NCBI GenBank assembly: GCA_964016885.1
Contig: OZ024740.1
Coordinates: 155,186,001-155,250,000, forward strand
DNA length: 64,000 nucleotides
Direction: 5' to 3'
Source: Eledone cirrhosa
Taxonomy: Eukaryota
A model generated the notes under the pieces. That model ran no database searches. It saw nothing but the letters and a program-made list of their open reading frames with translations, and was not told the DNA's origin. The translations under genes and the position numbers were made by a program. Numbering within the stretch: position 1 is the stretch's first letter; each line of letters begins with the position of its first letter. Positions 14,501-59,500 of the stretch are shown one piece after another.

Positions 14501-17500
14501 GAACTTCCAAAGTGTTTCTCTGACACAGGATTCCATCAGTTTGGCAATCCAGCTAGTAAGACTGACTGGACGATAGTTGACAGGCAACGTGTGGTCATCC
14601 TTTTTGAACTGAGGAATGACACTAGCAGTTTTCCAATGCTCCAGGTAACAACATTGTTAAGACAGAATTGAAAGAAGATTGAAAGCTGGCGCAGAAGAAA
14701 GTACCCACCACGTTTGAGAAGCTGATATGTAACACCATCAAGACCAGGAGATGCATAGTTGCGCTTATTCTTAAAGTGATGTCGCAGCATTGCAGGTGTA
14801 AATTCCATAGTTGTTATAGAATTTGATGTCAGAGGTGGGGAGATGGTAAATTTTGGTTTTCAACAGTAAAAATAACTGCATAGCATTCAGCAATGATTCT
14901 GCGCATTCTTTGGGATCATCAATAATCTGGCTTGTATGGGAATTGCAAAGAGGACCAACTGGAGAGTGAGGTTTCTGCTTTGAATACATATTTCCAGAAC
15001 ACTTTATTGTCAGAGTTGGTTGCTATGCACTGTTCAAATTCAATGCAGTTTGTATTCCCATTCAGCATTATGACGTTCTTTCCTGGCAAGTTGGACTGCT
15101 GCAGTCTCCTAAATTGCACTTTTTGGATGTCTTTTGTGCTTACATGCTGCACATGATGTCCATATTGAGTTCAGGGTGTTCTGAAGTATAGTGATCACAT
15201 CTCCAGAGTCATAAAATTCAAGCCAGTTTGGGTGTTGTAGCTCAGTGCAGTAAGAGTTCCAGTCTGCTTTATTCCAGTCAAAGCAACCAGTTTGGAGATG
15301 GTTGTGGTTTTTGTTACTGCTCATAAGCAATGATCATAACATGATCAGAATCATCTAAAGGTTCCTCACTAGTAACACCAATAACTAATAAGTGCTGTCA
15401 CCTCTTGTGGGGGAGGTGACTACTTGGGACCAGTTCGAGTCCAGCACTAGCCCAAGGAAATCAATTGCACTTTGCAGCCAACGAAAGGTTTCCCAATAAA
15501 CCTCAAGATGATTGAAGTCACCTGCAATAAAAACATAAGTGGCTGTTTTCCTGGCAGCAGCTCTGAGGATATCACAAAGCTGTGTGTCCTGATAGTAATT
15601 TGGGTGGTGGTAAACAACTCCAAGTTAAGTGTTGACATGGTCATATGTATATCACAGAAAAATACTTCTTGCTGTGATTGGTTCAAATCAACGCAAGGAA
15701 TTGCTGAAAAGTTTGAACAAACGTAGACCATCGCACCACCACGAATAATGCGGTCTTTGCGAAACAAGTTGTAGCCAGCTATGCTGAAAACCCCACCACA
15801 GCGTAAAGAATGTGCCCATGTTTTTGTGACTGTAATGAAGTTGGGGTCGATACTTTTGACGTTAAGAATCAAAAAGATGTATCGTGTTGCATAAACTACG
15901 AGCATTTAAGGACAACAATTTGTACTTTGATTTCAGTTCATGATGATATATAGGGGATGGCAGGTTGTTCTGATTTAGTTTCCCACAGGTTTTTTGCTGC
16001 CAGCTGTTGTGGGTACAGTGTGCTCAGACCAGCTGGTATCTCTTTTCCATGTTTCACCAGACTTAATAAACTTCCATATCTGCCTATCATCACATAGGCT
16101 GAAGCTTTCATGTTGTGCTGAGTTGTGATTTAAGGAAGCTGCAGTACGTAGCTTTGGACATATATCAGGTGGTAGGTTAGGGCATGTTTGAAAGGTAATC
16201 TGATTTTCATGCCTAGCATTATCTGCGTGAGTGGCTGGTTACAGCCAGTTTGAACAGAAAGAGGCAAAAGAATTCTGGCCAGTTTAAATGATAAAAGGTT
16301 AAATTTGTGGAGATGAGGCAACAAAGAGAAAAGCTCATCAGAAGAATTCCCATGAAAATATTTACTCAAACCATGGGATATATTGTTCTTGTTCCATTGC
16401 CTATGCCTGGAACATCCCCATATTAATTAACTAGTCACTTGTTATGCTGCTTGATTGTTCTGCTTCAAAAACTAATAAATCATATAAAGATATCCAGGGC
16501 ATGGACAACTGAATAAAAACAATTCACCCTCATGGCTTAAATAAAGTTTTGGGTTTAGGATCATGTTAATGGTATACATATCTGGAATACTCAGCCACTT
16601 GTACTATTATTTAATGAGTTTATTGAATAATTGAAATACTCATCAACTGGTGATATTTACTTTTTGTGTATATGCATACATCTATATGTGTGTCTATACA
16701 TGTATATGTGTATCATGTATTAGGGTGTGATAGTTGATCGACAACATCCCAGGCCTCACTCGCTTAATGAGTTCGGTGGAGCTCGTCAAATTGGACCGAG
16801 GAAACAATGTGTCCATTGGCCTTTCAAATTGCTAATTCTATGTACTGGTTGCAAATCCAGGCAGAAGGAGCAACGTGAAATAAAGTGTCTTGCTCAAGGA
16901 CATAACGTATCGCCTGGTCCGGAAATTGAACTAACAACCTTGCAATTGCGAATCCAATTCGCTAACCACTCAACCATGCGCTTCCACTAGGGTGTATAGA
17001 TGTATATGTGTATAAATGTGCATCAAGTTATCATTCCTGCAAACTTACCTTTTGCATGATGACACTATATGTTGGACACACAGAGACAAGGGCTGATATT
17101 GTCATGACAACAGCAAGGGGTAGTGGTTTGGTGAATAAAAAGAGAAGCACCATACACAGCACACTGATAATGTTTCCCCATTGTAAAACAGACAGCCTGT
17201 TGATGAAATGAAAGCAAGAGACCAAAAAAGAGATAAGTATATATCATCATCATTTAACATTTATTTTTCAATGGTGGTATGTGATAGACTATATATATAT
17301 ATATAATAAATAAGAGAAATGGTTTTATTTGTACATCTTCATTTTATTGTCTAATTCATTATGCATATAATGAATTAGACCAGGCATGTGAAACATGCGG
17401 TCCGCGGGCTGCATGCAGCCCTTTATAAGCACACTTGCTGCCCGCACAAAGGTTTTTGCAGCGTGAGCATGTTTTATCTTCATAATATAAAATTTAAAAC

Positions 17501-56500: not shown

Positions 56501-59500
56501 TGCCGTATTGTTGTTATGAGATGCGAGTGAGATTTTTGACGTGGGCGGATAGCAGGGGGTCCAAGCCTTCGGTGTACATTAAAGGTGATGCCAACATCAT
56601 TTGGGCAAAGCTGATGGAATATTTTCCACATCATGCAGATAATGTAGCGCTCACGGCGACGTTGGAGAGAATAAAGGTTGAGCTTTTCTAATCGACTCCA
56701 ATAGTCAAGAGCTGTCATGCCATCTATCTTTTTTGTAATTGACTTTTGGGGTGCTTCAACTTTCATGATACTTTGTTTCATGTGGGGAGACCACAGTGGA
56801 CAACAGTATTCAAGGTGAGGGTCGGGCAAAGGGGGAGAAGAAAAAGATAACAGTGTAGATATCTCTCGACTGAAAAGTTCTGAGAATCCAGGAACACATT
56901 CTGCGGGCCATATCAACTTTGCTGTTTATATGAGTGGCCCAGCTTATGTTGTTGTCCACAATTACTCCCAGGTCTCCGATGTTATTGGATGCCACTAGAG
57001 TTTCACCCGAAGGAAGAGAGTATGGTAGTTTCAGGGCATCCTTTTTTCCAAAGTGGATTAATTCAAACTTATCCTCATTCAACAGCATATTATTCATCTC
57101 TGCCCATTGGATAACAGCCAGTAGGTCTGACTGAAGGCAAGTCCGGTCACCCACCTCATTGATGACCCTTTGGAGCTTGGAGTCATCTGCGAAGATTCTG
57201 ATGTTACTGTGCTTGATGATGTCAGTAATGTCATCAATGTAGATGATGAAAGAAGTGGGCCCAACACAGTGCCTTGTGGGATGCCACTGCGGACTTTGGC
57301 AGGGCTTGATTTTACTCCTTCGACTACAACATGCTGTGTTCTGCCTGTCAGGAAACATTTGATCCACTGTAGTAACCTTCCAGAGACACCAATATTGGAT
57401 AGTTTTTTCAGTAAAATCTTATGATCAACTCTGTCAAAGGCCTTGCTGAAATCAAGGTAGATGACATCAGTGTTGGAGCCCTCTCCCAAGGCACTCAAAA
57501 CATCATCAAAGTGATGCTGGAGCTGCGTTAGGCAGTCCCTTCCATTACGGAACCCATGTTGGTTGGAGTTCAGCAGGCCGTTGCTGTCAAGAAAGTGGGT
57601 TATTCGTGATCTCACCACCCTCTCAAATACCTTGATAATATGAGAGGTGAGTGAGATCGGACGGTAGTTCATTGCAAGGGATTTATTTCCTTTTTTGAAG
57701 ACTGGGACAGAAAGTTTTCAGGAATATAGCCAGTATCCAGTATCTTTTAATTTCAATTATCAAAGTTATGTTCAAATCATTTAATTGCTGACAATCGTTT
57801 CTCCCAAACTTTTGTAGGGTGTAATGGATGCGACATATATTATACGAGAATTGTACAAAAATTCAAATTAAAAGCACAGAGTGGAATACATGCGACAGAT
57901 AATACAAGGGAATAGTCTAATAATTAAAGAGGCATTGAGAAACAATGAGGACACTAGCAGTACATATGCAAGCGTGTAGAAATGCCTCTTTAATTATTAG
58001 ACTTTTCCGTTGTATTATCTGTCGCATGTATTCCACTCTGTGCTTTTAATTTGAATTTTTGTACAATTCTCGTATAATATATGTTGCATCCATTACACCC
58101 TGTAAATACTAAACTGTTGTTCACAACATCAATATATATGTATCTATATGATTGTTCAGTTGAATAGGAGGTTAATTATATGTACAAACATTGCTAATGC
58201 TCCGATGACTCCAAACAAAAGTTTGGAAGAAACGATTGTCAGCAATTAAATAATTTGAACATAACTTTGATAATTGTGTAATTTTTATATATATATATAT
58301 AAAAACTTTGACAGTGAAATTCCAAATGACTGTAGATGTTGTTAAGCTATCAAAAGAAGAATAAATAAATAATCAAATATATCTATCTAACCACCACCAT
58401 TGCCATCATTCATGAATTCAACCCCGAGATACTTCAACTTCTCCACCTGCTTCAGTGGAACTCCACTCAGATGTAGAGTGCACTGTCCAGGCTTCCTTGA
58501 GAGGATGATTGTCTCAGTTTTCACAGCACTGATTTTCATTCCAGCCATACAAGACTCAGTATCAAACCTATCAAGTGCAAGTTGGAGATCACCTTCTGTT
58601 AAGTTAAGTAATACCATGGTGTCTGCAAATTCCAACTGACTGATTTTACACCCGCCAGTCATGGTACCATTTCCAACCCGGCTGTGCATGTCAATCCCGT
58701 TCATGAAAATAATGAACAGGAGAGGTGACAGTATGCACCCTTGGTGTCGTCTGACTCACACATTGAATAGTTTCCATTTAGCACAAATACTTGGCAATTC
58801 ATATAGAGACAACAGGACAGCAAGAAGCTGACCACTGATCCCATACTCCTGCACAATCTTCCACAGCAGGTCCCGACGAATGCGATCATATGCCTGTTCA
58901 TGGTCTACAAAACAAGAATATTCCTCTTGGCAATATTCCCACAATTTCTCAAAGACCTGCCACAGTGTGAATATTTGGTTGGTTGTGCTGTATCCAGGGT
59001 GAAAACTGCACTGTTCCTCAGCCTGTTAGGACTAGCAGTGCTAATAGTAGAAAGTGTAACTGTCAAATCCCTACTCAATACCTTTTAAATAACTAATACT
59101 TAACTAAGATTGTCATATATAAGTGAACAGTATCAACATGTAGCAGAATAGTTCATTATATAGGAACAACTGCTTCACCTTTTAAGTAGAGGTTCTACAA
59201 TCATATCCATTAATGTAGATTTTGAATAAGAAATAACATGTCACTAGCAGAATTGATAGAGAATCTAAAAATGAAGAACATCAGGTAAGTAATCTCTTGG
59301 TCTATAATTTGAACTGCCAATCCCTACAAAGGTAATCTATGTTTCATGGAACTTGTGCAGATAATGAGGCACAAAGTGGGCCTAATCAATAAATGCAGTG
59401 AATGACTACCTAATTGTCAATACAAATATTACTTGAACATTTCAACGAACCACTATGAATCTTAAAAACAATTAATCATGACAATAGTTGCATAATCTTT

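What the first reader, a model, noticed from the sequence alone, without database searches (positions are those of the whole stretch)
17300..58275. Recurrent long palindromes of unrelated sequence at (TA)n tracts, several carrying hammerhead ribozymes
At least 8 near-perfect fold-back structures with ~60-200 bp arms occur: ~17303-17665, 22820-23280, 30769-30913, 49524-49725, 52627-52828, 53535-53697, 55999-56208 and 57755-58275. Most abut TA microsatellites. Four contain CUGAnGA...GAAA hammerhead cores (intact or one substitution away) and one family flanks a Penelope-type RT. Established: Penelope-like elements carry type I hammerheads in their pseudo-LTRs and often leave inverted terminal copies. 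Inference: several non-autonomous ribozyme-bearing retroelement families (PLE-derived or retrozyme-like) integrate at TA repeats as fold-back copies.
Basis: partly seen in the sequence, partly recalled or inferred. Interest (0 to 1): 0.75.

Follow-up and report, generated by a model that had tools for sequence, protein, structure and literature searches.

The report
Twin-primed Penelope hairpins, one tRNA-bearing
These eight hairpin-shaped DNAs beside TA repeats are back-to-back pairs of truncated ends of Penelope-type jumping genes and their likely non-coding passengers (one built round a tRNA look-alike), a published layout, but nearly every pair has one short and one long end, which likely means the enzyme copies the RNA twice, once into each side of the cut chromosome.

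Summary
All eight palindromes are real; each arm is the 5'-truncated 3' end of a multi-copy family, pointing outward onto (TA)n. Three families continue into Penelope-like (PLE) RT/GIY-YIG genes (two Neptune/Nematis-type, one Hydra-type), so they are not all non-autonomous. Four hairpins hold a type I hammerhead, two more lost it by truncation, two families have none: a 555-bp tandem unit and a 260-271-bp tandem unit carrying a conserved tRNA-like domain. Inverted 5' copies, a one-sided tail and TA targeting are published. What the counts add: every family has two fixed 3' ends (short S, long L); 143 of 147 clean pairs are S+L although solo copies are about half each; in 30 of 61 mapped pairs each arm holds sequence the other lacks (against snap-back or artefact); arms share private variants (93 of 154, 15 expected). 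Best reading: two primings, one per RT start site, on both strands of one cut, joined at the cDNA ends. This scan noted the S+L rule and the tRNA passenger before on other DNA of this genome (unreviewed); I reached both before looking and tested them here. No RNA data.

The parts
17302..17726 (.). Family F17 fold-back: short-ended left arm on (TA)n, centre at the palindromic stem-loop III of the family's hammerhead (~17361-17368), right arm with a partial tail (17666-17726)
17381..17610 (.). Later MITE inserted in the right arm, short terminal inverted repeats, 8-bp target duplication at 17373-17380 and 17611-17618 (hAT-like by TSD length; label recalled)
22820..23336 (.). F22 fold-back (Neptune/Nematis-type PLE end): S arm left, L arm right with 56-nt tail (23281-23336); TA on both sides
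22951..22985 (-). Minimal type I hammerhead (stem I 4 bp, stem II 6 bp, 1-bp stem III); the right-arm copy has a broken GAAA
30764..30981 (.). F30 fold-back: S arm left, L arm right with ~66-nt tail; no coding link found
30855..30893 (+). Type I hammerhead, stem I 6 bp, stem III 3 bp, U-U at the base of stem II
49457..49729 (.). F49 fold-back: L arm left (tail 49457-49523), S arm right; no coding link found
49559..49690 (.). Two type I hammerheads with long loop II, one per arm (- 49617-49559; + 49632-49690)
49762..49863 (.).
52583..52831 (.). F52 fold-back (Neptune/Nematis-type PLE end): L arm left with tail, S arm right; truncated 3' of the family's degenerate hammerhead
52904..53349 (-). 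PLE RT fragment of family F22 (94.6% nt), weak RVT_1 match
53347..53524 (+). F52 S arm joined head-to-head to the F22 RT fragment (cross-family junction)
53535..54166 (.). F53 non-coding 555-bp tandem-unit element: left L arm is tail only (~77 nt), right S arm is one full circularly permuted unit; no hammerhead or Rfam family found
55952..56201 (.). F56 tRNA-bearing 260-271-bp tandem-unit element: L arm left, S arm right, both cut off at the 3' edge of the tRNA-like domain and joined near its self-complementary CATG
57754..58285 (.). F57 fold-back (Hydra-type PLE end); left arm has a 113-bp deletion, both ends short-type (the window's exception to the S+L rule), left end not on TA
58202..58240 (+). 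Type I hammerhead with U4-to-C core change
60734..60838 (-). Older solo copy of the tRNA-bearing family, starting in the T arm

Best explanation
Each hairpin is one insertion made of two 5'-truncated, outward-pointing 3' ends of a Penelope-like element or of a likely passenger RNA, and it likely arises when the element's enzyme cuts both strands of a TA repeat and primes one cDNA from the short start site and one from the long start site. Shown: polarity, two fixed 3' ends per family, S+L pairing, independent 5' truncation of the arms, tight junctions, coding links for three families. Inferred: a dimeric RT-endonuclease uses each start site once, probably on one RNA molecule; the two cDNA 3' ends are joined by host end-joining, favoured where the template has a short self-complementary word (CATG, ACGT, hammerhead loop III); the tRNA-bearing and 555-bp units are copied in trans from tandem or circular RNA, the tRNA domain serving as Pol III promoter and/or processing signal in place of a hammerhead.
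For: 3' ends are bimodal in 8 of 8 families. Pairs: six families, 122 examined, 45 dropped (38 with an end off TA, 6 neither S nor L, 1 duplicate), 75 S+L, 1 L+L, 1 S+S; before that filter 92 of 103 classifiable pairs were S+L. tRNA family: 53 S+L, 1, 1, and 8 other of 63. 555-bp family: 16 S+L of 17, two being one event. Total 143 of 147; TA-ended solos of the six families are 76 S and 70 L, so independence predicts about half. Family-blind check: 13 of 14 fold-backs with TA on both sides in 400 kb are one-sided. Of 61 mapped junctions (of 89 tried) the S arm reaches further 5' in 30, the L arm in 17, equal in 14; most gaps lie between -4 and +9 nt. Arms share 93 of 154 minor alleles against 15 expected. 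Sense-strand PLE coding sequence lies just upstream in 12 of 30 F22 and 13 of 30 F52 loci, and Hydra-type ORFs lie between inverted F57 ends in long loci. In vitro, an Anolis PLE cuts and extends both strands, starts at two RNA sites that bound the tail, and is predicted to be a dimer (PMC11167929). The CATG fold-back joint and the tandem joint occur in raw reads of two other samples.
Against: No RNA or biochemical data for these families. PMC11167929 saw no difference in start site between strands and did not test coupling. Shared alleles can also come from one dominant source locus or from conversion between arms; the own partner is the closest arm in only 24 of 44 pairs (1 of 7 in F22). A cross-family head-to-head junction (53347) shows two RNAs can meet. 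The window's F57 pair and one 4-kb F57 element (L303) are S+S. No coding link for F49, F30, F17, F53, F56 and no sequence shared between the passengers and any PLE in hand, so their partner enzymes are unidentified. Loci were best hits, not random copies; the F53 query was the tail itself.
Confidence: 0.62

Rival explanations
1. Two primings, S and L, but on two separate RNA molecules held by the two protomers; the asymmetry comes from protein geometry, not from sharing a template.
For: Explains S+L and independent truncation equally; cross-family junction at 53347; partner arm closest in only 24 of 44 pairs.
Against: 93 of 154 minor alleles shared against 15 expected; 11 L arms stop within about 12 nt of the S site, against 6 and 5 in the next two 24-nt bins by my count (weak).
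Confidence: 0.24
2. One cDNA folds back and primes itself (self-priming as proposed in PMC3846280), and endonuclease resolution trims one arm to give the one-sided tail (as suggested in PMC8557442).
For: Palindromes recur at junctions; arms are alike; published proposal.
Against: A copied arm must be contained in its template arm, but in 30 of 61 pairs each arm has sequence the other lacks; zero-loop 4-bp centres suit annealing of two ends better than a hairpin (inference); S and L match measured RT starts in a related element.
Confidence: 0.08
3. The tRNA-bearing palindrome is a MITE-like DNA element or a single hairpin master that moves as a unit.
For: About 17 young copies share the same CATG centre and near-perfect arms.
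Against: That set was retrieved with a query spanning the centre; other copies have varied centres, tandem units, one-sided tails, no terminal repeats; the CATG joint also occurs one unit further in (L152); no arm-specific shared variant.
Confidence: 0.04
4. Assembly or library artefact.
For: No record spans a whole window hairpin in the runs laid.
Against: Arms differ by 1-11%, hold unique family sequence, obey an S+L rule, one is interrupted by a later MITE with TSD; the fold-back joint is in independent raw reads.
Confidence: 0.02

Closest known systems
Insertion units of endonuclease-bearing PLEs (Arkhipova et al. 2013, PMC3846280, passages; Craig et al. 2021, PMC8557442, passages and section 11)
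   Same: Inverted 5'-truncated copy head-to-head, tail often on one end only, partial tandems, (TA)n targets, hammerhead in pLTR, palindromes at junctions.
   Different: Tails here are about 40-135 nt rather than 30-40; one-sidedness is near-absolute and counted; the data argue against the self-priming those passages propose.
Poseidon of Anolis carolinensis in vitro (Frangieh et al. 2024, PMC11167929, parts 1-2 of 4 read)
   Same: Two RT start sites bounding the tail; both strands cut and extended at AT-rich DNA; uncleaved RNA is the template; predicted dimer.
   Different: Coupling of the two starts in one event and origin of inverted arms were not addressed in what I read; here S ends often adjoin AT/TA letters that could pair with the target.
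Neptune/Nematis-type (F22, F52) and Hydra-type (F57) PLEs
   Same: C-terminal GIY-YIG with CX4CxxC linker, or CxCX5C linker with CxxC before the conserved E; TA insertion.
   Different: No tree built; Neptune versus Nematis not resolved.
Animal non-LTR retrozymes (PMC7761336, passages; bioRxiv 10.64898/2026.07.22.740005, part 1 of 5 and passages)
   Same: Non-coding tandem units of a few hundred bases, thought to be PLE-mobilised.
   Different: Defined by a hammerhead in each unit; F56 and F53 have none; F56 has a tRNA-like domain.
Schistosome Sm-alpha/Sj-alpha SINE-like elements (through PMC6765202 passages only)
   Same: Pol III-type promoter in tandem repeats.
   Different: Those carry a hammerhead; the PLE end signature (two starts, inverted arms) is not described for them in the passages seen.

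Membership tests
EN+ Penelope-like elements (F22, F52, F57) | RT plus C-terminal GIY-YIG in the same element | tested here: met
   RVT_1 E 7e-4 and 1.3e-3 (below gathering); GIY-YIG E 1.1e-4 (at gathering) for F22, 0.0099 for F57; motifs read directly; all copies broken, no intact ORF seen
EN+ Penelope-like elements (F22, F52, F57) | pLTR/partial tandem, inverted 5' copy, optional tail | tested here: met
   L301/L302 pLTR running into ORF; inverted elements to 4.5 kb
EN+ Penelope-like elements (F22, F52, F57) | Type I hammerhead near the 3' end | tested here: met
   F22 25 of 30, F57 7 of 25; F52 core only 17 of 30 with weak stem I; two compensatory pairs in stem II between F22 and F52
EN+ Penelope-like elements (F49, F30, F17) | Linked RT/EN ORF | tested here: inconclusive
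   No own coding sequence within 800 nt upstream in 30, 30, 25 loci (one hit is a neighbouring F22 copy); copies retrieved are short
Hydra clade (F57) | CxCX5C linker, no CCHH, (TA)n target | tested here: met
   translations of L304, L306 against section 11 of PMC8557442; RWK and DKT motifs not checked
Neptune/Nematis (F22, F52) | CX2-5CxxC linker and CCHH | tested here: met
   translations of L308, L312; clade not separated by phylogeny
Non-LTR retrozyme (F56, F53) | Tandem non-coding unit | tested here: met
   260/271-bp and 555-bp tandems
Non-LTR retrozyme (F56, F53) | Type I hammerhead in each unit | tested here: not met
   0 of 55 and 0 of 25 loci by descriptor; Rfam gives only tRNA or nothing
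Non-LTR retrozyme (F56, F53) | Circular RNA expressed | not testable with these tools
   no RNA run listed
tRNA-derived SINE (F56) | tRNA-related head with A and B boxes | tested here: met
   RF00005 above gathering in 5 of 8 loci and 47 bits in L276; ARAGORN 9 of 11 loci
tRNA-derived SINE (F56) | Fixed 5' head to LINE-derived or simple-repeat 3' tail, monomeric | tested here: not met
   circularly permuted tandems, two internal 3' ends, inverted pairs
tRNA-derived SINE (F56) | Pol III transcription | not testable with these tools
   a T4-T5 run lies 10 nt behind the tRNA domain (25 of 36 array units T5), so templates need read-through or another promoter
Functional tRNA gene (F56) | Decoding-competent cloverleaf | tested here: inconclusive
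   cloverleaf conserved (0 of 71 majority differences vs 34 of 189 elsewhere, 6 array units) but GGA anticodon with a short variable loop and three G-U acceptor pairs do not fit a serine tRNA (established knowledge)
MITE / foldback DNA transposon | Symmetric terminal inverted repeats with fixed TSD | tested here: not met
   asymmetric S+L ends, variable centres

The most novel reading that the evidence does not exclude
Penelope-like elements integrate by obligatory twin priming: a dimer starts one cDNA at each of two fixed sites of a single RNA, one on each strand of the cut, which explains the inverted repeats and the one-sided tail together; and the same machinery mobilises a ribozyme-free, tRNA-mimic tandem RNA (a SINE-like passenger of PLEs) whose copies break at the tRNA T arm, possibly recording host m1A58 methylation.
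Probability: 0.42. Interest if true: 0.76.

Novelty: new variant of a known kind. Interest (0 to 1): 0.55.

Why it matters
How PLEs make their inverted repeats is named as open in PMC8557442, and a working in vitro PLE system now exists (PMC11167929). The S+L rule gives it a sharp prediction and argues against the published self-priming idea. A tRNA-bearing passenger without hammerhead would widen PLE parasites beyond retrozymes and give SINE-like RNAs a non-LINE partner. At about 6 short fold-backs per 100 kb these insertions are also a large source of long hairpins in a 3-Gb animal genome, which could matter for dsRNA pathways (untested).

Tried and rejected
Rfam scans for hammerheads: none in the window at E<=1 or among the 150 listed of 196 rows for 10 loci; the miRNA matches are hairpin/microsatellite noise below gathering. 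A strict hammerhead descriptor found only F49 in the window. Hammerhead cleavage as the cause of 5' truncation: rejected, centres lie from about 50 nt before to 130 nt behind the site, and the F17 centre includes bases upstream of it. First idea that F57 pairs 3.6-4 kb apart were DNA-transposon TIRs: rejected, they enclose PLE ORFs. Search for a PLE sharing sequence with F56 or F53: nothing beyond 11-20-nt chance words. Automatic mapping of F56 inner ends by 11-mers failed for most pairs; I used BLAST ends and reading by eye instead. Stop at tRNA A58: mixed, 17 of 25 loci of one query start at unit positions 55-69 (by eye) and read depth steps up there, but only 3 of 40 arms do in loci picked with the tail-linker query; the subfamily test reported in earlier notes was not done. 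Covariation count of pairs (3 vs 2.6 shuffled) is not significant by itself. No RNA holder listed. Reads laid on 57400-58284 did not span the hairpin. TSDs cannot be read inside TA tracts. TA run length does not differ much between S and L ends (median 28 vs 24). Chromosomes beyond C1-C4 were not sampled for density.
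Full report
Observation. Self-comparison finds all eight fold-backs. The window lies on contig C1 of a 3.0-Gb genome rich in TA tracts and RTE/CR1-type LINE pieces; an octopus is my guess from size and repeats, not a tool result. A family-blind finder gives 10 fold-backs in the window, 19 in 200 kb of flanks and 23 in 40 evenly spaced 10-kb stretches of C1-C4; 18 of those 23 have a TA tract within 25 nt of one end. 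So the feature is real, common and about 2.7-fold enriched here.

What the arms are. Each arm was searched in the genome (173-2433 first-look candidates, 40 scored, 25-30 loci fetched each). All are 3' ends of dispersed families, 5'-truncated at variable places, with the 3' end outward on (TA)n. F52 and F22 run upstream into RT plus GIY-YIG coding sequence (13 of 30 and 12 of 30 loci) with a CX4CxxC linker; F57 ends enclose ORFs with a CxCX5C linker, the Hydra mark. F49, F30 and F17 show no coding link in the short copies retrieved. The window's RT piece belongs to F22, not to the F52 ends that flank it, and is fused head-to-head to an F52 arm.

Hammerheads. Rfam reports none. A type I descriptor, relaxed once to allow a bulge or mismatch at the base of stem II, finds 6 sites in the window, all in these insertions, against 0.08 in shuffles; per family 27 of 30 (F49), 26 of 30 (F30), 25 of 30 (F22), 7 of 25 (F57), 7 of 25 (F17), 0 of 30 with core only in 17 (F52), 0 of 25 (F53), 0 of 55 (F56 sets). 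Between F22 and F52 two of six stem II pairs change on both sides; 92.5% of cells pair against 19-42% in slid controls, but this is two lineages and the pair count equals the shuffle mean. Activity is untested; F57 (U4C), F30 (U-U) and F52 (short stem I) look weakened.

Two ends and the pairing rule. In all 8 families 3' ends fall in two peaks, S and L, about 40-135 nt apart; beyond L the sequence is the start of the next unit or ORF. Head-to-head pairs are almost always S+L: 75 of 77 in six families after dropping 45 of 122 rows (92 of 103 classifiable before the TA filter), 53 of 55 in F56 with 8 further rows unclassifiable, 15 of 15 in F53 after merging one duplicate, with 1 other. Solos ending on TA are 76 S and 70 L in the six families. 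In the unselected 400 kb, 13 of 14 fold-backs with TA on both sides are one-sided. Exceptions exist: the window's F57 and L303 are S+S, L108 and L291 L+L.

Junctions. Of 89 S+L pairs mapped on long single-copy references, 61 had a junction within 40 nt (families with internal hairpins mostly failed). Either arm may be longer: S in 30, L in 17, equal in 14; overlaps of 1-4 nt, blunt joins and short insertions dominate. Where the S arm is longer, each arm has sequence the other lacks, so neither is a copy of the other. Centres recur at short self-complementary words: CATG and ACGT in F56, the loop III palindrome in F17. Arms of one pair are closer than arms of different loci in all six families and share 93 of 154 minor alleles against 15 expected, though the partner is the nearest arm in only 24 of 44 pairs.

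The two passengers. F53 is a 555-bp unit in partial tandems; in the window one arm is the tail only and the other one full permuted unit; no Rfam family. F56 is a 260-271-bp unit: tRNA-like domain, body, S, tail, L, 52-nt linker. The domain scores above the Rfam tRNA threshold, keeps A and B boxes and is unchanged between an old array and a young dispersed unit while 34 of 189 other positions differ (6 units). A 10.3-kb array of about 38 units has 87% identity at every lag, TA on both sides and an S end, which fits one long copying event or old local expansion. Many arms stop at the 3' edge of the tRNA domain (17 of 25 loci; depth step), next to the base equal to A58, but not in the set that had already passed one tRNA (3 of 40). 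The CATG joint is in raw reads of two other samples (17 and 23 reads; 6 and 9 starts) and in assembled contigs. Inference: a monomer ending at L lacks the linker, so only tandems could be templates, as for PLE pLTRs. The D-arm resembles tRNA-Gln from memory only.

Mechanism. Best: both strands of a TA tract are cut; one cDNA starts at S, one at L; both truncate; their 3' ends are joined. One shared RNA is favoured (0.62) over two RNAs (0.24); self-priming (0.08) is contradicted for about half the pairs.

Literature. PMC8557442 (passages, section 11): inverted 5' copy, tail often at one end, TA targets, Hydra motifs, mechanism open. PMC3846280 (passages): tail on one inverted pLTR, junction palindromes, self-priming proposal. 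PMC11167929 (parts 1-2 of 4): two starts, both strands, dimer model. PMC6765202, PMC7761336, PMC6685494, PMC3520738, PMC13282606 (passages); bioRxiv 10.64898/2026.07.22.740005 (part 1 and passages; no occurrence of 'tRNA' or 'tail'). Nine searches showed no paper stating the S+L coupling or a hammerhead-free tRNA passenger of PLEs; most hits were seen as listings only, and the library lacks subscription papers and Repbase.

Earlier notes of this scan (unreviewed) report the S+L rule and this tRNA-bearing family from other windows of the same genome; a sequence look-up of the window's copy found nothing. I had both readings before these look-ups; they supplied PMC3846280, the Hydra and Sm-alpha leads, and a subfamily claim on A58 that I did not test.

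Verdict. Known kind of element and known architecture, with a near-absolute pairing rule that makes an open mechanism testable and a passenger that fails the retrozyme and SINE definitions. New variant of a known kind; interest 0.55.

Noticed in passing
window 52904-53524: Head-to-head fusion of an F22 RT fragment (ending mid-ORF on TA) with an F52 S arm; a cross-family pair or a nested insertion.
   Followed up: partly
window 34831-35859 (also 33704-34830, 45220-49059): Young RTE-type LINE copies with (GAT)n tails meet tail-to-tail across a TA tract, the opposite geometry to the PLE hairpins; this LINE also seems to prefer TA tracts.
   Followed up: no
window 55128-55935: About 810-bp multi-copy element with fixed ends at TA tracts and a 134-bp internal inverted repeat (55174-55632); ends resemble Helentron-associated short elements (recalled); not PLE-like.
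   Followed up: partly
window 30997-32603: Tc1/mariner-type transposon with 216-bp terminal inverted repeats and a DDE_3 match.
   Followed up: partly
L323:7695 to L316:7978 (C4 about 264.916-264.926 Mb): Array of about 38 tRNA-bearing 271-bp units, equal divergence at all lags, bounded by TA.
   Followed up: partly
L075-L077 (C22 about 13.603 Mb): 91-bp tandem array made of short F30 hammerhead hairpins separated by TA runs.
   Followed up: no
window 61237-63099: 38-bp minisatellite, about 51 copies, with variable (AAC)n.
   Followed up: no
window 49110-49458: F52 fragment split by a copy of an abundant SINE-like repeat.
   Followed up: no
L418:211-500: Diverged (66-72%) relative of the 555-bp family, also as an S+L fold-back.
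   Followed up: no
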